NCBI GenBank assembly: GCA_021399345.1
Contig: JAAFKI010000124.1
Location: forward strand, 1 to 64,000
DNA from: Candidatus Heimdallarchaeota archaeon
GTDB taxonomy: Archaea; Asgardarchaeota; Heimdallarchaeia; Heimdallarchaeales; Heimdallarchaeaceae
Direction: 5' to 3'
DNA: 64,000 bases
The notes under the pieces are model-generated. The model was not told the DNA's origin. It saw only the letters and a program-made list of their open reading frames with translations, and searched no databases. The position numbers and the translations under genes were made by a program. Below, piece after piece: positions 1-25,417 of the stretch; position 1 is the stretch's first letter, and the number at the start of each line of letters is the position of its first letter.

Positions 1-15
1 ATATTATTGATAATT

Positions 16-426
16 ATGGCACTTGTGATTTCCACAGAACTAAATGTTGGTTATGATAAATTCAAAGAAGTAGAAAAAGCTACCAGAGAAATTTTAGCTG
101 AATATGGATTTGGAATTTTAACTGAAATTGATGCACAAGAAACTTTGAAGGACAAAATTGATGCAGATATTCGTCCTTATAAGATCTTAGGAGCTTGTAA
201 TCCCCCTTTTGCTCATAAAGCAATAGTTCTAGTACCTGAAATTGGTGCTCTACTTCCCTGTAATGTAATAATATATGAAAACGAGAATGGAAAGATCGTT
301 GTTTCTGCAATGAATCCGAAAGAAGCTATGAGTGTAGTTAAAGTTGATAAACTCAATGAACTTGCAGATGAAGTTAACGAAATCATGAAAGATGTAATAA
401 AAGACATTGAAAGCAAATTCTCTTAG
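16..426 (+). CDS. DUF302 domain protein
   Basis: Motifs GFGILTEID, YKILGACNP and IGALLPCNV typical of DUF302; ATG at 16. Confidence 0.9.
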   Translation: MALVISTELNVGYDKFKEVEKATREILAEYGFGILTEIDAQETLKDKIDADIRPYKILGACNPPFAHKAIVLVPEIGALLPCNVIIYENENGKIVVSAMNPKEAMSVVKVDKLNELADEVNEIMKDVIKDIESKFS

Positions 427-20363: not shown

Positions 20364-20747
20364 TTACTCTACTTTTACTTCTTTTTCATATTTCCAAAAA
20401 CCGTGTATGTTACAATAAGATGTTGCAATAAGCTTTCCTGGTTTGTCAGTTTTTAATTGAAAAACTGCATAAGGTTCTGAATAAACACCGCTTGTATCAG
20501 GTCCTTTTATTGAAGCTCCATGAGCATCAAAATTGGCTAGACCAAGTTGATAGGGGTATTTCTCGCCTTCAGGCCAGAACATTAGTTTTATCCAAGAAAT
20601 ATGATGCTCTGTTTTGTTAGGGTGAGCAATTTCTTTTCCAACACTAACAGTTACAAGAGCTTTTTCTCCAGCTTTAATAACATCTGCAATTTCAATAACA
20701 GGTACATGTTTTTCTGTTTTCCAATCAGCTGTTCCATATAATTCCAT
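20364..20747 (-). CDS. sor: Superoxide reductase (neelaredoxin / class II SORL)
   Basis: EKHVP, HPNKTEHHISWI and YCNIHG motifs; SD AGGTGA. Confidence 0.93.
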   Translation of the reverse strand: MELYGTADWKTEKHVPVIEIADVIKAGEKALVTVSVGKEIAHPNKTEHHISWIKLMFWPEGEKYPYQLGLANFDAHGASIKGPDTSGVYSEPYAVFQLKTDKPGKLIATSYCNIHGFWKYEKEVKVE

Positions 20748-20828: not shown

Positions 20829-21332
20829 CTACTCGTCGTAATCTTCGTAAGTTGTTGTTAGGGGTTCATCTTCATCATATTCATCTTCATCGTCTAGTAC
20901 TGATGCTTCAAGAGGAACAGTAGAGGATAAAGGAGATGATACAGCTGCAGGTGTAGGTTCGTCGCTATCATGTGTTCTTATATCAGATTCAGCTTCCTTT
21001 AGTTCAAATTCAAGTTTTTCCAGATCTTCTTCAACTTTTAGTATTTTTCTTTCTAATTCCTTAAGCTTGTAATCCCTTTCTGCAATTGAAGCTTCTTTTT
21101 TCTTTGCAGCAACTTCACTTTTCAAAGCTTTATCTGGTACTCCTTGATTTTCAAAACCTGCTTTCTTGACTAGATTTTCTTCTCGATCTTTGTTATCTTT
21201 TGCTCTCTTCTTGTTTTCGTTGGCTATTTTTTTCTTAAGATCTTGTATGTCACCAAGCTTCTTGTAAATGTCTTCTTCAATGTCATACTTTTTCTCCAAG
21301 AGTTTGAAATATTGAACTTTATGCTCACTCAT
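20829..21332 (-). CDS. Hypothetical coiled-coil protein with acidic tail
   Basis: K/E-rich heptads, then a Pro/Ser linker and DDEDEYDEDE...YEDYDE. Confidence 0.7.
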   Translation of the reverse strand: MSEHKVQYFKLLEKKYDIEEDIYKKLGDIQDLKKKIANENKKRAKDNKDREENLVKKAGFENQGVPDKALKSEVAAKKKEASIAERDYKLKELERKILKVEEDLEKLEFELKEAESDIRTHDSDEPTPAAVSSPLSSTVPLEASVLDDEDEYDEDEPLTTTYEDYDE

Positions 21333-21522
21333 AATAATCCAATAAAATAAGGAAGAACATATTTTTAAGTTTACTCAATTAGGGGACAATAGTGTGAAAA
21401 TAGCTAATTTGTACTCACTTAGTGACATAACTATTCAATCGAGAGAGAAAAGAAAAATTTAAGAACAAAGCAGAATGGAAAAAAGTGTAGATGATTAATC
21501 TACAAAAAATCAAAAAGGAGTC

Positions 21523-21676
21523 CGGGCTTTAGCTCAGTGGCTTAGAGCTCTCGGCTGTAGTCAATAGACACCCTTGTGAGCAATGATCAAGGTGTCAGCG
21601 GGAGAAACCGAGCGGTCCCGTGTTCAAAAGATTTCAGATGCGTTCTGAAAATTTGAAAATCACGGAAGCCCGACCA
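21523..21676 (+). tRNA. trnY: tRNA-Tyr(GTA) with two introns (21561-21606 at 37/38; 21629-21659 at 59/60) and encoded CCA
   Basis: Acceptor CGGGCTT/AAGCCCG with A73 and CCA; D stem GCTC/GAGC; anticodon stem CTCGG/CCGAG with GTA at 21557-21559; T stem CCGTG/CACGG; BHB motifs. Confidence 0.92.
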
Positions 21677-21678
21677 CT

Positions 21679-22434
21679 TTATCTTTTTCTACCTATTGCA
21701 TAAAAAACAGGAATGAAAATAGTTCTTTTGTTTTCATTTATTATCTCTTTTTCCGCTATTATTTTATTTCTGAACTCCTCTTTTGAAATTAATTTTGATT
21801 CATAAATAAGTCTCCATTCTTGCTCAATATTCATCAAGAGGTTTTCCTTATCCCACACTTGTGCAATTACACCTATTGAAGTATCGAGGTTAGCTGTTTC
21901 GAATAAAGTTTTGAGTTTTCTTCCCATGAAAGGATCAGCACCTTCACTCTTCAGATAATCTGTATGATACTTCCCTAAATTATACTCTGGGTATTCTAAC
22001 CAGCCCCCATAATCTGGTTCTGCTAACGCCGCTACAAACCCTCGTTTCTTACACACTCTACTCATTTCCTTAATTGCTTTCTCAGGTTTAGATAACCATA
22101 GAAAGAGATATTGACAGAGCACAATGTCAAACATACCAGATCTCATTGAGAGTTTCTCAACATTTTCCCGCTTAAAGTTAACATTTTTCACGTTCTCTTC
22201 TGCAAAAGAAAGCATAGATTTATCATGATCAACTGCAGTGATTTTTGCTCGAGTTCTTTTCCTTAGTTCATCTGTAATAATACCTGTTCCACACCCCACC
22301 TCTAAAACTTTCTTTGCTCCTCGCAAGTTTATTTGAGGATATATTTTGTTCCTAACAGATTCTGTCCATTTAGCTTGGCGGACAAATTGCTCATGGATTT
22401 GTGGACCCCAGTTAACATCTTCTCTGTTTGTCAT
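21679..22434 (-). CDS. Class I SAM-dependent methyltransferase (third gene of the radical SAM operon)
   Basis: VLEVGCGTG, FDIVLCQYLFLW and ALAEPDYGG motifs; ATGA overlap with the radical SAM stop. Confidence 0.9.
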   Translation of the reverse strand: MTNREDVNWGPQIHEQFVRQAKWTESVRNKIYPQINLRGAKKVLEVGCGTGIITDELRKRTRAKITAVDHDKSMLSFAEENVKNVNFKRENVEKLSMRSGMFDIVLCQYLFLWLSKPEKAIKEMSRVCKKRGFVAALAEPDYGGWLEYPEYNLGKYHTDYLKSEGADPFMGRKLKTLFETANLDTSIGVIAQVWDKENLLMNIEQEWRLIYESKLISKEEFRNKIIAEKEIINENKRTIFIPVFYAIGRKR

Positions 22435-23735
22435 GAAAATGCTTCCTTACAGATATTGGAGGAGGTAGTGTAATTCAAGGGACATCCACCTCCACAAAGC
22501 TCTCTTTCTGGACAATCTAAACATTCTTCTGGGAGGTATTCCATCTTGCGAAGATTTTTAGATACCTTATGATTCCAAATCTTTCTCCATTTAGTTGTAA
22601 GTATATTTCCTAAGGGTTCAAAATAGCTTTGACAAGGGAGTACAGCTCCATCAGGTTCAATAGCCATTGCGATATGAGATGCTGAGCACTGTTTCATCCC
22701 TAATCCCTTTTCAATAGGATTGAAGTCACAATATCTTGTAGGACTATACCAAATGAAAGACATTTCTTTTTTCTCTGCAGTTTTTAGAATCTTTGTAAGA
22801 ACTTTATCTAGTTCTTCAAGAGGGAGAGCTAATTCTTTTTGTTTTCCTCCACCGGATTTTATAATGCTATTTGCTGCAAAATGATCAATTCCCAAAGAAC
22901 CTAAAAATTCAACTGTCTTTTCTATTTCTTTGACATTAAATGGAGTTAGGGTTGTATTTGTCATGATATAAACTGGAGTTGGGACAACATTCTTTATTCC
23001 TTGTACAGTTTCTTTCCATGCTCCTTTAACTCCACACAATTGGTCATGAATCTTTGAATCATGACTCTCTATTGTTAATTGAAAATGATCTATTCCAGCT
23101 GTAACAAGCTTATCTACTAGAGCCTTATCTTTTAATTCTCTACCGTTTGTAATCAAGCCTGTTATAATCCCTAAATCTTCAGCATATTCCACTAAATCTG
23201 GCAGGTCTTTTCTAAGTGTAGGTTCTCCTCCTGTAAATGTAACATGTGGTACACCTATGTCCCACAGTTTGTCTAGAACTAGCTTCCATTCGCCTGTTGA
23301 TAGTTCCTTAATTTCTCTTGGAGTTTCAACATAACATTTAGTACATTTACTATTGCATTTGTATGTTAGAGCTAAATCCATCCTTAAAGGAGCAGAAAAA
23401 TGAGTCTCGTTTAAAGGACTTATATCTTGAGATAAATGCTGAACAGGATCTATATCAGGTGTTATCATAAGTTCATTAATAGATGTTTTAAGCTCACGAA
23501 GGTCAATTTCTAACTGTTCAATCGATACTCTGTATTTCTTCTTCATTTCGAATAAAATATCAACATCTTCTTTACCTTCAATAATCCGTGAAACAAAATC
23601 TGTTGCAGTTTTGTTTAGATGAAGGATTCTTGTAGCATTAACTAGTAATAAACCTGTTCCACCCTTTTCCTTTCTAAGATGCATTCTAGCAGTAGTATCA
23701 AGATTTCTTTGATGAAAAACTCTATCCTTACCCAT
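22431..23735 (-). CDS. Radical SAM/SPASM peptide maturase with N-terminal PqqD/RRE-like domain
   Basis: CNSKCTKC, FTGGEP, ITNG; SPASM motifs C..S...IEPDG.VLPC and CLDC...CGGGC; N-terminal LHLNKTA...KKKY.V...L..D winged-helix pattern; TAATG overlap. Confidence 0.9.
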   Translation of the reverse strand: MGKDRVFHQRNLDTTARMHLRKEKGGTGLLLVNATRILHLNKTATDFVSRIIEGKEDVDILFEMKKKYRVSIEQLEIDLRELKTSINELMITPDIDPVQHLSQDISPLNETHFSAPLRMDLALTYKCNSKCTKCYVETPREIKELSTGEWKLVLDKLWDIGVPHVTFTGGEPTLRKDLPDLVEYAEDLGIITGLITNGRELKDKALVDKLVTAGIDHFQLTIESHDSKIHDQLCGVKGAWKETVQGIKNVVPTPVYIMTNTTLTPFNVKEIEKTVEFLGSLGIDHFAANSIIKSGGGKQKELALPLEELDKVLTKILKTAEKKEMSFIWYSPTRYCDFNPIEKGLGMKQCSASHIAMAIEPDGAVLPCQSYFEPLGNILTTKWRKIWNHKVSKNLRKMEYLPEECLDCPERELCGGGCPLNYTTSSNICKEAFS

Positions 23736-25417
23736 TATCTTCCACCTCCAGCACATGCGCAAGCACAAGCACATGCACAAGCACAGCCCCCTCCACTGTA
23801 ACTTCTTCCACCACTACTTGATCTAGTTGGTGGAGGTCGAGTTATATTTTTCACAGAATCACGTAATGAGCCAGGTTTATGCACCAACCCAGACATGAAA
23901 CTTTGGACAGGAGCTGTATGAGATATTCTTCCCTGTCGACTTATTTGCATAAAAGGTCCTATACTTTTATGTCTTCTGCGAGATATGCTTGAACCAATTG
24001 CATAATAATAGTAACTTCTCACATACCAACCAGGATAATAATAAGTTCCTCCATATTTCTCCAAACGCTGGTCATAATTTTCATCTACCATAATCCAAAG
24101 GAAGGCATTAAGCAGTTCTGGATTTGATTTACTCATTTCCTGCCATGCTTTATCTATTATTGATTCATAATAATCCCTTGTTTTTCTAGCAGAAAAGCCT
24201 TTCATTTTTTTAGCTACACTTTTTATTTGAGCAACTAGTGCATTTTTCAAATCAGTTTGATGAACAGGTTCTTTTGGTATTGTTCCTGAAGCTGCTCCTC
24301 TCTTCCACTTTTCATCTTCTTTGTTCCTTTTTCGTATACCAACAATCATTGATTTATGTGGTTTTGAAAATTCAGCTATAGTAGCATCTGTAGCAGCAAT
24401 ATCTAATCTTAACTCAGGTTCCCTTGTTCTAATATTTAGATACCCTTTTTCCATTAATTCAAATAGCATTAAAGAAGCAACTTGTGTTAAAGGTCTTTCA
24501 AAAAGTAATGCAACTTCAGAGGGGGCCAGATCTTCTCTAACTCCTCCTCCTAATGAACTAATAGAGGGCGGGAGATATCGTCTAGAGTTTCTTATTTTTC
24601 TAAATATGTACATAATCACAGCTAGTACAATTATGCAAGCTATTGCAGTTGCCATGGGGTATCTTATCATACTGCCCCATACTAATAAAGTCCAAAACGA
24701 ATTGAATGTTTTTGAATATTCTTCAGGAAATGCTACCCCTACTTCATAGCTGAAATATGGTGTTCCTATTGAAGAAAACTGTACATAAGGACCCTCAGGT
24801 GAACTTGCAACCCTGGTAAATTCTGCCATATCTGCAATTCTATAATCAACTTCCGAAATATCTGTGAGGTCTTCAGGGAAATAAAATCTAACAGTTCTGT
24901 TTGTTGATCCGGACGAATAGTCTATCCCATACCATGTTTGATAAAACACAACTGAAGCTAAACCTTCTTGATTATCATTGTAAACCATTTTAGGATTGTG
25001 ACATTCAACCTCTAAGATTCCAGTTTGACCAGCATAAATATAACCTACTTCATCAAGCCAAATCTCTACACCGATATCAATATATTCACTTTTTCTTATA
25101 TCTGTAACTTCTGTCCCATTTAACCAAGCTTTTACAGATTTTAGCTGGTAGTAAACATTAGGGAAACCAACATCAACTACATCTATTGCTTGACCTAAAA
25201 CAGGGTCGTTAACAAACTCAAATCTATAATAAATGTCAATGGATCCATTATCATTTATTGATATTTCAGTGTATATTGATGGAACCTCAAAGTAATAATC
25301 TTCCATTCTTGGATTAGACAAAGTCACATCATTTTCTTTTGCTATTGAAAACGATGGTGATAAGCTGATAGATAAAATCACAATACTAAGAAACACAAAT
25401 ATTTTTTTCAAAGTCAT
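23735..25417 (-). CDS. DUF2207-like membrane protein with C-terminal GGG(CA)6GGGR tail
   Basis: Signal peptide, I.INDNGSIDI.Y ectodomain, TM, LAPSEVALL and LMEKGYL motifs, Gly/Ser-rich tail; SD AAGGGGAG before ATG 25417. Confidence 0.85.
   Translation of the reverse strand: MTLKKIFVFLSIVILSISLSPSFSIAKENDVTLSNPRMEDYYFEVPSIYTEISINDNGSIDIYYRFEFVNDPVLGQAIDVVDVGFPNVYYQLKSVKAWLNGTEVTDIRKSEYIDIGVEIWLDEVGYIYAGQTGILEVECHNPKMVYNDNQEGLASVVFYQTWYGIDYSSGSTNRTVRFYFPEDLTDISEVDYRIADMAEFTRVASSPEGPYVQFSSIGTPYFSYEVGVAFPEEYSKTFNSFWTLLVWGSMIRYPMATAIACIIVLAVIMYIFRKIRNSRRYLPPSISSLGGGVREDLAPSEVALLFERPLTQVASLMLFELMEKGYLNIRTREPELRLDIAATDATIAEFSKPHKSMIVGIRKRNKEDEKWKRGAASGTIPKEPVHQTDLKNALVAQIKSVAKKMKGFSARKTRDYYESIIDKAWQEMSKSNPELLNAFLWIMVDENYDQRLEKYGGTYYYPGWYVRSYYYYAIGSSISRRRHKSIGPFMQISRQGRISHTAPVQSFMSGLVHKPGSLRDSVKNITRPPPTRSSSGGRSYSGGGCACACACACACAGGGR
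23750..23785 (-). repeat. Six Cys-Ala codon pairs
   Basis: TGT GCT TGT GCA TGT GCT TGT GCT TGC GCA TGT GCT; synonymous variation between units. Confidence 0.95.

What the first reader, a model, noticed from the sequence alone, without database searches (positions are those of the whole stretch)
21679..25417. Candidate new RiPP-like system: RRE-radical SAM/SPASM and methyltransferase acting on a (Cys-Ala)6 tail fused to a membrane protein
Seen: three genes are translationally coupled (TAATG overlap at 23733-23737, ATGA overlap at 22431-22434). The first is a 560-aa protein with signal peptide, ectodomain and TM, ending ...RSSSGGRSYSGGG-CACACACACACA-GGGR. The second has CxxxCxxC, a full SPASM Cys set and a roughly 90-aa N-terminal PqqD/RRE-like domain. 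The third is a class I methyltransferase. I found no small precursor ORF nearby. Established: RRE-radical SAM-SPASM enzymes (PqqE, AlbA, CteB/SCIFF, PapB) modify ribosomal peptides, often forming Cys thioether crosslinks. Inference: the substrate is the cytoplasmic Cys-rich tail of the membrane protein, giving either a post-translationally crosslinked or methylated membrane protein or a peptide released at the Gly tracts. I know of no characterised example, and none in Asgard archaea.
Basis: partly seen in the sequence, partly recalled or inferred. Interest (0 to 1): 0.92.

Follow-up and report, generated by a model that had tools for sequence, protein, structure and literature searches.

The report
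Radical-SAM cassette for Cys-Ala protein tail
A Heimdall-group archaeon carries a tightly coupled three-gene operon in which a membrane protein ending in an invariant (Cys-Ala)6-Gly-Gly-Gly-Arg tail sits next to a peptide-modifying radical-SAM enzyme and a methyltransferase; the same trio recurs across many anaerobic bacteria and archaea, so it probably makes an undescribed modification of a whole membrane protein.

Summary
The chemistry is untested.

- **Operon.** Three minus-strand genes overlap (TAATG, ATGA). They encode a 560-aa single-pass membrane protein ending GGG-(CA)6-GGGR, a 434-aa RRE-radical SAM-SPASM enzyme, and a class I methyltransferase.
- **Tail.** It is the hallmark of one protein family: 513 representatives at E<=1e-30, and 127 of 148 top representatives end in (CA)n[G](CA)mGGGR. 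A DNA pattern for the tail hit more than 120 species.
- **Linkage.** The radical SAM ortholog lay in the same 8-kb chunk in 104 of 123 loci. All five exceptions I tested have it elsewhere in the genome.
- **Own phylum.** 58 of 59 tail-bearing genomes have the enzyme. In one genus, 11 genomes have both and 11 have neither.
- **Enzyme fold.** The model matches SkfB and SuiB over its full length, including the RRE.
- **Family membership.** No Pfam or NCBIfam family claims the tail protein or the enzyme, and no paper in the library holds the motif.
- **Precedent.** Radical SAM thioether crosslinking of whole proteins is published (CrpC/CrpA 2026; QhpD/QhpC), so this is a new variant of a known kind.

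This scan found the same system earlier on other Heimdall genomes (e1-1479799, e1-4835098, e1-5449837).

New here:
- a Cys-free pseudo-radical-SAM paralog and a Zn-ribbon membrane partner in the bacterial cassettes;
- two independent origins of (CA)6;
- a ribophorin-I-like fold match for the tail protein.

The parts
23735..25417 (-). Gene for the 560-aa tail-bearing membrane protein (P0001), stop codon included
   Evidence: It has homologs in Asgard archaea and bacteria, all with the same tail. The AF2 model has mean pLDDT 83.
25343..25417 (-). Signal peptide, residues about 1-25
   Evidence: Hydrophobic N-terminus, helix 4-19 in the model. It aligns with the signal peptides of homologs.
24725..25291 (-). 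Extracellular beta-sandwich domain, residues about 43-231
   Evidence: AF2 strands 43-231 with pLDDT above 90. Foldseek matches ribophorin I/Ost1 and the N-terminal domain of M1 aminopeptidases.
24584..24658 (-). Single transmembrane helix, residues 254-278, followed by RKIRNSRR (positive-inside)
23786..24583 (-). Cytoplasmic part, residues 279-544: winged-helix-like unit, helical bundle, two short helices (502-526), conserved T(N/R)PxP motif and a Gly/Ser linker
   Evidence: AF2 model and family alignment A2.
23738..23785 (-). The tail, (Cys-Ala)6 (23750-23785) followed by Gly-Gly-Gly-Arg (23738-23749); the proposed substrate
   Evidence: These columns are invariant in 50 aligned homologs. 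127 of 148 family representatives end in this kind of tail. The segment is disordered in the model.
22431..23735 (-). Gene for the RRE-radical SAM-SPASM enzyme (P0002, 434 aa)
   Evidence: Pfam Radical_SAM E 4.5e-24 and SPASM E 5.4e-10. AF2 mean pLDDT 86.5. VIA Z 28.7 to SkfB and 28.3 to SuiB.
23463..23720 (-). N-terminal PqqD-like RiPP recognition element, residues about 6-91
   Evidence: Beta3-alpha3 topology. Pfam PqqD matches 37 of 55 orthologs. The full-length structural alignment with SuiB and SkfB includes their RRE.
23334..23357 (-). CxxxCxxC radical SAM cluster motif (C127, C131, C134)
   Evidence: Invariant in 55 orthologs.
22482..22730 (-). SPASM region with seven conserved Cys (C336, C350, C368, C405, C408, C414, C418)
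21679..22434 (-). Gene for the class I SAM-dependent methyltransferase (P0003, 251 aa)
   Evidence: Pfam Methyltransf_11 E 1.4e-21. Orthologs sit in the cassette in 85 loci.

Best explanation
The three genes form one post-translational modification cassette.

**The substrate protein.** The membrane protein is made with its N-terminal beta domain outside the cell. Its C-terminal half is in the cytoplasm. There a flexible Gly/Ser linker presents the invariant (Cys-Ala)6-GGGR tail.

**The enzymes.** The radical SAM/SPASM enzyme docks on the protein through its PqqD-like RRE. It uses a 5'-deoxyadenosyl radical to modify the tail while the tail remains part of the full-length protein. The methyltransferase adds a further methyl group. 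That methyl goes either on a remaining thiol or on the invariant C-terminal Arg carboxylate.

**The chemistry I think most likely.** Intramolecular thioether (sactionine- or ranthionine-type) crosslinks from Cys sulfur to carbons of neighbouring or cross-strand Ala/Gly residues. In a hairpin register every Cys faces an Ala, as Cys faces Gly in StsA.

**Shown versus inferred.**
- Shown: gene coupling, co-occurrence, enzyme class, RRE, topology.
- Inferred: that the tail is the substrate (about 0.7), that it stays attached, and that the products are thioethers (about 0.4).

The confidence given is for the core claim, that enzyme and methyltransferase modify the tail of the whole membrane protein.
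For: **Coupling**
- Overlapping stop and start codons join the three genes.

**The tail is exclusive to one family**
- In 117 of 123 loci the tail belongs to a P0001 homolog. The other six show too little of the gene to tell.
- 127 of 148 family representatives carry the tail.

**The enzyme follows the tail**
- The radical SAM ortholog is in the same chunk in 104 loci and the methyltransferase in 85.
- Five loci without it all have a 520-670-bit ortholog elsewhere in the genome.
- In 400 genomes of the phylum, 58 of 59 tail genomes have the enzyme. In genus g14 the split is 11 with both and 11 with neither.

**The enzyme is a peptide maturase by build**
- CxxxCxxC plus a 7-Cys SPASM region.
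- PqqD-like RRE.
- Nearest solved structures are SkfB and SuiB.
- From my own knowledge: seven rather than eight SPASM Cys, as in CteB and CrpC, leaves an open Fe site that can bind a substrate Cys. PMC13692751 says this of CrpC.

**No rival precursor**
- No small Cys-rich ORF lies nearby.
- The bacterial Zn-ribbon partner is absent from this genome.

**Published precedents**
- StsB makes a hairpin ladder from CxCxC...GxGxG (PMC10288494).
- CrpC crosslinks a whole Cys-rich protein, at ACAGM, CAVD and PCAGD motifs among others (PMC13692751).
- Class I methyltransferases in RiPP pathways methylate C-terminal carboxylates (LahSB) or Cys sulfur (PtyS) (PMC11285071).
Against: - No chemistry is shown anywhere for this system.
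- Cys-X-Cys repeats are classic metal-binding motifs, so the tail could work unmodified.
- In one archaeal family (f12) the enzyme and methyltransferase occur in 19 of 19 genomes. The tail was found in only 7 of these. There it is not adjacent and lies at contig ends.
- The enzyme fails the curated cut-offs of every named maturase family, so its reaction cannot be read from homology.
- Some lineages replace Ala by Val and end GGGAR or GGGAG. Neither the acceptor residue nor the terminal Arg is therefore strictly required.
Confidence: 0.6

Rival explanations
1. The tail is the substrate but the chemistry is different. Candidates: anSME-like oxidation of Cys to formylglycine, epimerisation, C-C crosslinks, or sulfur insertion or removal. 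Methylation would follow.
For: The catalytic core also aligns well with anSME (Z 25.4) and PqqE (Z 24.8). The best NCBIfam scores are to PqqE and NirJ2, not to a thioether synthase. Homology cannot fix the reaction.
Against: anSME lacks an RRE, and its CxPxR/CxAxR motif is absent from the tail (sequence). RRE-SPASM enzymes with Cys-rich substrates characterised so far mostly form thioethers (PMC10288494, PMC13692751).
Confidence: 0.17
2. The modified tail is cut off at the Gly tracts and released as a small peptide or cofactor. The membrane protein would serve as a carrier or precursor, as PqqA and MftA do for PQQ and mycofactocin.
For: PqqE- and MftC-type SPASM enzymes with PqqD-like RREs make cofactors from C-terminal residues of a precursor (NCBIfam matches). 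Gly tracts flank the repeat.
Against: No peptidase or exporter is conserved in the cassette in 123 loci. The roughly 540-aa body of the protein is itself conserved, with 513 representatives. That would be wasteful for a mere leader.
Confidence: 0.08
3. The tail is an unmodified metal- or Fe-S-binding site. The neighbouring radical SAM enzyme and methyltransferase act on something else, or only help load a metal centre.
For: Alternating CxCxC is metallothionein-like. The bacterial cassettes add a Zn-ribbon membrane protein. The f12 genomes keep the enzyme and methyltransferase without a detectable adjacent tail gene.
Against: The RRE is a peptide-docking domain. No other candidate substrate is conserved. 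Presence and absence of tail and enzyme co-vary within a genus. Many cassettes add a second, Cys-free paralog that keeps only the RRE, which fits protein or peptide handling.
Confidence: 0.12

Closest known systems
CrpC/CrpA of Methanococcus voltae (radical SAM-SPASM with RRE that installs thioether crosslinks in a 29-kDa Cys-rich protein; PMC13692751, 2026)
   Same: An archaeal RRE-radical SAM-SPASM enzyme with seven SPASM Cys. It is encoded next to a full-size protein whose Cys sit in a repetitive C-terminal region. The product is a modified protein, not a peptide. Some modified motifs (ACAGM, PCAGD) resemble the CAG junctions of the tail.
   Different: A different enzyme family: P0002 scores 31.7 bits against TIGR04463, cut-off 525. 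CrpA is a soluble repeat protein with 17-residue motifs, not a membrane protein with a 16-residue tail. The Crp cluster has no methyltransferase. The paper does not mention this system.
StsB/StsA and other hairpin-forming sactisynthases (SkfB, AlbA; PMC10288494; PDB 6EFN)
   Same: SkfB is the best solved-structure match (phmmer E 3.8e-27, VIA Z 28.7). The StsA core is CxCxC...GxGxG, and its alternating Cys link to small cross-strand residues in a ladder. That geometry fits (CA)nG(CA)m.
   Different: Scores lie far below the family cut-offs: SkfB 105 of 300, StsB 88 of 625, AlbA 80 of 850. Their substrates are short, leader-bearing, secreted peptides. Here the donors and the presumed acceptors interdigitate in one repeat at the end of a membrane protein.
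QhpD/QhpC (quinohemoprotein amine dehydrogenase gamma subunit; PMC7876137)
   Same: A SPASM radical SAM enzyme forms several intra-protein Cys thioether crosslinks in a protein that stays part of a larger assembly.
   Different: QhpC is a small periplasmic enzyme subunit crosslinked to Asp/Glu. The family, context and substrate sequence are unrelated.
Haft's ACGX-repeat peptide system (TIGR04340 rSAM_ACGX)
   Same: A radical SAM/SPASM enzyme paired with a short-period Ala-Cys-Gly repeat substrate.
   Different: P0002 scores 63.4 bits against a cut-off of 400. The ACGX substrates are small peptides. That system is uncharacterised as well.
DUF2207/YciQ-type membrane proteins and ribophorin I/Ost1 (for the tail protein body)
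   Same: Same layout: signal peptide, beta-sandwich ectodomain, TM helix, cytoplasmic helical part. Foldseek gives E 2e-9 to human ribophorin I. The Atlas neighbours include DUF2207 and DUF2207_C clusters.
   Different: Only 1 of 50 members touches Pfam DUF2207 (E 0.0086). TM-scores are 0.24-0.44. None of these relatives is known to carry a Cys-Ala tail.

Membership tests
RRE-dependent radical SAM/SPASM peptide maturases (functional class) | CxxxCxxC motif for the SAM-binding [4Fe-4S] cluster within a radical SAM barrel | tested here: met
   C127, C131 and C134 are invariant in 55 orthologs. PF04055 E 4.5e-24.
RRE-dependent radical SAM/SPASM peptide maturases (functional class) | C-terminal SPASM domain with the 7-Cys set for two auxiliary clusters | tested here: met
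   PF13186 E 5.4e-10. Seven conserved Cys at 336, 350, 368, 405, 408, 414 and 418.
RRE-dependent radical SAM/SPASM peptide maturases (functional class) | PqqD-like RiPP recognition element (three strands plus three helices) | tested here: met
   P0002 alone is weak (E 0.012). PqqD matches 37 of 55 orthologs, best E 4e-9. AF2 topology E-E-E-E-H-H-H over residues 6-91. Aligned with SuiB over 8..426 at Z 28.3.
RRE-dependent radical SAM/SPASM peptide maturases (functional class) | Acts on a genetically linked ribosomal substrate | not testable with these tools
   Linkage is shown. Catalysis is not.
Sactisynthases SkfB (TIGR04403), AlbA (NF012164), StsB (NF045574) | Score above the curated equivalog cut-off | tested here: not met
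   104.8 of 300, 80.4 of 850 and 88.4 of 625 bits.
Sactisynthases SkfB (TIGR04403), AlbA (NF012164), StsB (NF045574) | Forms S-to-C-alpha thioethers; catalytic-site proximity profile of group 1 (PMC10288494) | not tested
   The reference residue tables are in a supplement that is not held.
TIGR04463 rSAM_vs_C_rich (CrpC family) | Score above the cut-off of 525 bits | tested here: not met
   31.7 bits.
TIGR04340 rSAM_ACGX | Score above the cut-off of 400 bits | tested here: not met
   63.4 bits.
PqqE (TIGR02109) | Score above the cut-off of 381 bits | tested here: not met
   145.3 bits.
anSME (anaerobic sulfatase-maturing enzymes) | Substrate motif C/S-x-P/A-x-R; no RRE | tested here: not met
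   The tail has no such motif. The enzyme has an RRE. Only the core aligns, at Z 25.4.
DUF2207 (PF09972), for the tail protein | Match to the Pfam model | tested here: not met
   No match for P0001. 1 of 50 homologs matches, at E 0.0086 and below the Pfam threshold. The structural neighbours are weak, TM 0.38.
Ribophorin I / Ost1, for the tail protein | Shared fold of the lumenal domain, TM helix and cytosolic helices | tested here: inconclusive
   Foldseek E 2e-9 over 518 columns, but TM 0.24-0.26 and rmsd about 20 A for the whole chain. The domains were not searched singly.
Class I SAM-dependent methyltransferases | Rossmann-type SAM-binding domain with the GxGxG motif | tested here: met
   PF08241 E 1.4e-21 and the motif EVGCGTG. 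No NCBIfam equivalog reaches its cut-off.

The most novel reading that the evidence does not exclude
The cassette makes a new kind of protein modification. This would be a two-sided ladder of Cys-to-Ala thioethers that folds the last 16-20 residues of a membrane protein into a rigid, methyl-capped knot. The knot would act as a protein-derived cofactor or metal or redox module on the cytoplasmic face of the membrane. It would be conserved from Chloroflexota to Asgard archaea.
Probability: 0.3. Interest if true: 0.85.

Novelty: new variant of a known kind. Interest (0 to 1): 0.72.

Why it matters
RiPP-type radical SAM enzymes are nearly always thought of as makers of small secreted peptides. Only a few cases of whole-protein substrates are known (QhpC, and since 2026 CrpA).

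This cassette would add three things. The system is widespread: hundreds of sequence clusters, many phyla, mostly uncultured anaerobes. The substrate is the tail of a membrane protein. The motif, alternating Cys-Ala, has no described chemistry.

It gives a simple, testable target. Three genes and a 16-residue tail are enough, and a cultured carrier exists (Ornatilinea apprima). The result could define a new protein modification and explain a large family of membrane proteins of unknown function.

Tried and rejected
- **Complex prediction.** Complex prediction of the enzyme with residues 495-560 of the tail protein, three 4Fe-4S clusters and SAM gave 0.03 against a mark of 0.32. The verdict was 'no answer', so it counts neither way.
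- **Expression.** No run listed as a holder is on record as RNA. Four runs with RNA-like library labels hold short pieces of all three genes. Their nature is uncertain and contigs cannot show transcripts, so I did not use this.
- **Literature.** The word 'CACACAGGGR' found nothing. 'ACGX' found nothing relevant.
- **Zn-ribbon partner.** A search for a homolog in this genome gave only a chance-level match, E 0.15.
- **Family f12.** I looked for tail proteins in five genomes that have the enzyme. One truncated hit and four blanks came back, in 74-89% complete MAGs. I could not decide between assembly loss and true absence.
- **Sister clade.** I examined the sister radical SAM clade of family f31 (about 360 bits) for an alternative substrate. 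No tail protein or Cys-rich neighbour was seen.
- **Catalytic-site proximity profiling.** I considered the method of PMC10288494 to tell sacti- from ranthisynthase. The reference tables are in a supplement that is not held.
- **Methyltransferase and LahSB.** The match (E 2e-7) covers only the generic SAM-binding part. It is a lead, not evidence for carboxyl methylation.
- **Promoter and terminator scans.** They gave no more sites than shuffled sequence.


Full report
**1. What is in the window**

Three genes lie head to tail on the minus strand.

- **Tail protein (25417..23738, 560 aa).** It starts with a hydrophobic signal peptide and ends ...RSSSGGRSYSGGG-(CA)6-GGGR.
- **Radical SAM enzyme (434 aa).** The TAA stop of the first gene shares two bases with this gene's ATG (TAATG).
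- **Methyltransferase (251 aa).** The TGA of the second gene overlaps this gene's ATG (ATGA).

The twelve Cys and Ala codons mix TGT/TGC and GCT/GCA. The flanking intergenic stretches hold no small Cys-rich ORF.

**2. The three proteins**

*Radical SAM enzyme.*
- Pfam finds Radical_SAM (E 4.5e-24) and SPASM (E 5.4e-10). PqqD is a weak match (E 0.012) at residues 31-82.
- In an alignment of 55 orthologs, the three Cys of CxxxCxxC and seven Cys of the SPASM region are conserved.
- PqqD matches 37 of the 55 orthologs, best E 4e-9.
- An AlphaFold2 model (mean pLDDT 86.5) shows a strand-strand-strand-strand-helix-helix-helix domain at residues 6-91, ahead of the barrel.
- The model aligns over its whole length with two RiPP maturases. 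SkfB gives Z 28.7 over model residues 16-423. SuiB gives Z 28.3 over residues 8-426, which takes in their recognition domains.
- No NCBIfam equivalog comes near its cut-off. Examples: PqqE 145 of 381 bits, SkfB 105 of 300, StsB 88 of 625, rSAM_ACGX 63 of 400, the CrpC family TIGR04463 32 of 525.
- So it is an RRE-radical SAM-SPASM enzyme of a family that has no name.

*Methyltransferase.* It is an ordinary class I enzyme (Methyltransf_11, E 1.4e-21) with no equivalog.

*Tail protein.*
- It has no Pfam or NCBIfam match.
- Its model (mean pLDDT 83) has a beta-sandwich ectodomain (43-231) and one TM helix (254-278) followed by RKIRNSRR.
- The cytoplasmic part has a winged-helix-like unit and helical bundles.
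- The last 22 residues are disordered.
- The tail is therefore a flexible cytoplasmic appendage within reach of soluble enzymes.
- Foldseek's best matches for the whole chain are ribophorin I/Ost1 (E 2e-9, but TM only 0.24-0.26). For the ectodomain they are the N-terminal domain of M1 aminopeptidases.
- The ESM Atlas neighbours are unnamed Chloroflexota clusters and weak DUF2207/YciQ clusters.

**3. Is the pairing real?**

*Homologs.* All 15 homologs found by word search end in the same kind of tail. Three contigs from unrelated organisms show the same gene order: tail protein, radical SAM/SPASM, methyltransferase.

*Genome-wide scan.*
- A DNA pattern for CACACAGGGR plus a stop codon hit more than 120 species. 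I expect about 0.02 hits by chance (my estimate).
- The carriers are mainly Anaerolineae. Planctomycetota, Thermoplasmatota/Methanomassiliicoccales, Heimdall, Hod and Prometheoarchaeota, Aminicenantes, Zixibacteria, Fermentibacterota and others also appear. The cultured Ornatilinea apprima P3M-1 is among them.
- In 117 of 123 loci the tail belongs to a P0001 homolog. In the other six too little of the gene is visible to tell.
- Within the same 8-kb chunk, the radical SAM ortholog is present in 104 loci and the methyltransferase in 85.
- Five loci that showed no enzyme all have a strong ortholog (520-670 bits) elsewhere in the genome.

*Own phylum (400 genomes).*
- 59 genomes have the tail and 73 have a strong ortholog of the enzyme. 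58 of the 59 tail genomes have the enzyme.
- The one exception has its tail at a contig edge.
- In genus g14, eleven genomes have both and eleven have neither.

*Family size.* A profile search of 1.84 billion representatives gives 513 proteins at E<=1e-30. Of the 148 best, 127 end in (CA)n[G](CA)mGGGR. Most of the rest are fragments. Seven carry longer variants with Val for Ala and endings such as GGGAR.

*Caveat.* In archaeal family f12 the enzyme and methyltransferase are present in 19 of 19 genomes. The tail was found in only 7. There it is never adjacent and always lies at contig ends. I cannot tell assembly loss from true absence.

**4. What the wider family adds**

- **Tail variants.** (CA)4G(CA)3 is commonest (62 loci). 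Then come (CA)3G(CA)4 (13), (CA)3G(CA)3 (12), (CA)6 (9, archaea only), (CA)5G(CA)3 (8) and (CA)2G(CA)4 (7).
- **Origins of (CA)6.** On a tree of the enzymes the (CA)6 form appears twice, in Heimdall archaea and in Thermoplasmatota. The sisters of the Heimdall clade carry (CA)3G(CA)3. The central Gly is therefore dispensable, but six or more Cys-Ala units are kept.
- **Zn-ribbon partner.** Most bacterial and Thermoplasmatota cassettes start with a protein of about 125 aa. It has two TM helices and a zinc ribbon and ends EEPKW. It is present in 71 loci and absent from this genome.
- **Pseudo-enzyme paralog.** Chloroflexota and Planctomycetota add a second paralog of the enzyme. It keeps the RRE but has lost CxxxCxxC and nearly all Cys. 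This is a pseudo-enzyme, reminiscent of NCBIfam's pseudo-SAM/SPASM proteins.
- **This window.** The Heimdall operon is the minimal three-gene form.

**5. Mechanism**

*Shown:* translational coupling, exclusive co-occurrence, enzyme class, a peptide-docking domain, a cytoplasmic flexible tail, and no other conserved candidate substrate.

*Inferred:* the enzyme docks on the protein and modifies the tail in place.

*Why I favour thioethers.*
- StsB turns CxCxC...GxGxG into a hairpin with three Cys-Gly sactionines (PMC10288494).
- CrpC of Methanococcus voltae installs thioethers in a whole 29-kDa Cys-rich protein, at motifs such as ACAGM and PCAGD (PMC13692751).
- QhpD does so in QhpC (PMC7876137).
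- In a hairpin centred on the Gly, or on the middle of (CA)6, every Cys faces an Ala. That is a geometric observation, not evidence.

*Methyltransferase.* It could cap the invariant C-terminal Arg as a methyl ester, like LahSB. Or it could S-methylate left-over Cys, like PtyS (PMC11285071). Its match to LahSB (E 2e-7) covers only the SAM-binding part.

*Rivals.*
- Other chemistry on the same tail. The anSME and PqqE cores align nearly as well.
- Release of the tail as a peptide or cofactor. No peptidase or exporter is conserved.
- An unmodified metal-binding tail with the enzymes acting elsewhere.

**6. Known or new?**

- No paper in the library holds the motif. No curated family covers the tail protein or the enzyme.
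- The CrpA paper does not mention this system.
- The principle now has direct experimental precedent: a RiPP-type radical SAM enzyme working on a whole protein. I therefore class this as a new variant of a known kind.
- This scan has already found and followed up the same cassette on other Heimdall genomes (e1-1479799, e1-4835098, e1-5449837). A later check there counted 2,790 genomes of 38 phyla. I did not repeat that count, but my own smaller tallies agree.
- The leads to StsA/StsB, QhpD and the ACGX system came from those notes. I read the papers and tested the ACGX family myself.
- The CrpC/CrpA paper, the pseudo-enzyme paralog, the Zn-ribbon partner, the two origins of (CA)6 and the ribophorin-like fold match come from my own searches.

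**7. Verdict**

The chemistry is open. Interest is high but not extreme. The system is widespread, sharply defined and easy to test, but its concept is no longer without precedent and nothing about its product is known.

Noticed in passing
L064:2121-3278 (-), L046:4275-5447 (+), L072:2452-3735 (-): Chloroflexota and Planctomycetota cassettes carry a second paralog of the radical SAM enzyme. It keeps the PqqD-like RRE but has no CxxxCxxC and almost no Cys (0-3), so it is a likely pseudo-enzyme or docking subunit. It is absent from the Heimdall operon.
   Followed up: partly
L064:6440-6811 (-), L014:2313-2666 (+), L006:3984-4394 (+): A protein of about 125 aa with two TM helices and a C-terminal zinc ribbon, ending in the conserved EEPKW, lies directly upstream of the tail-protein gene in 71 loci. 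It has no homolog in the window's genome (best E 0.15).
   Followed up: partly
L136:6337-7770 (-): A sister clade of RRE-radical SAM-SPASM enzymes (about 360 bits to the profile) is present in 56 of 89 genomes scored in three families of the same phylum, nearly all in f31. It has no Cys-Ala tail protein in the genome and no obvious Cys-rich neighbour. Its substrate is unknown.
   Followed up: partly
L135:5758-7848 (+): In archaeal family f12 the enzyme and methyltransferase are adjacent, but the tail-protein gene is elsewhere. It is always at contig ends, and it was undetected in 12 of 19 MAGs.
   Followed up: partly
window 23735-25417 (-): The predicted structure of the tail protein has ribophorin I/Ost1 as its best PDB matches (E 2e-9, low TM).
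   Followed up: partly
P0019-P0022, P0024; P0153, P0160-P0162, P0166: Some family members are 766-838 aa long and match the profile in two or three stretches, which suggests an N-terminal duplication of the ectodomain. Others have longer tails of three or four blocks with Val for Ala and S/N/H spacers, ending GGGAR, GGGAG or GGGVGK.
   Followed up: no
window 20364-20747 (-) and 20829-21332 (-): A 127-aa protein that looks to me like a superoxide reductase (from its sequence; no family search was run) and a 167-aa acidic protein that looks coiled-coil follow the operon. Both are syntenic in related Heimdall loci (L033, L060, L092). This is synteny among close kin only.
   Followed up: partly
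window 21523-21676: The two-intron tRNA-Tyr proposed in another first-stage note is called neither by ARAGORN nor by Rfam (E<=0.01) in 21200-21800. That does not rule out an intron-bearing archaeal tRNA.
   Followed up: partly
window 21679-25417: Near-identical DNA is held by marine and other sediment, seawater and hydrothermal-vent metagenome runs from at least nine studies.
   Followed up: no
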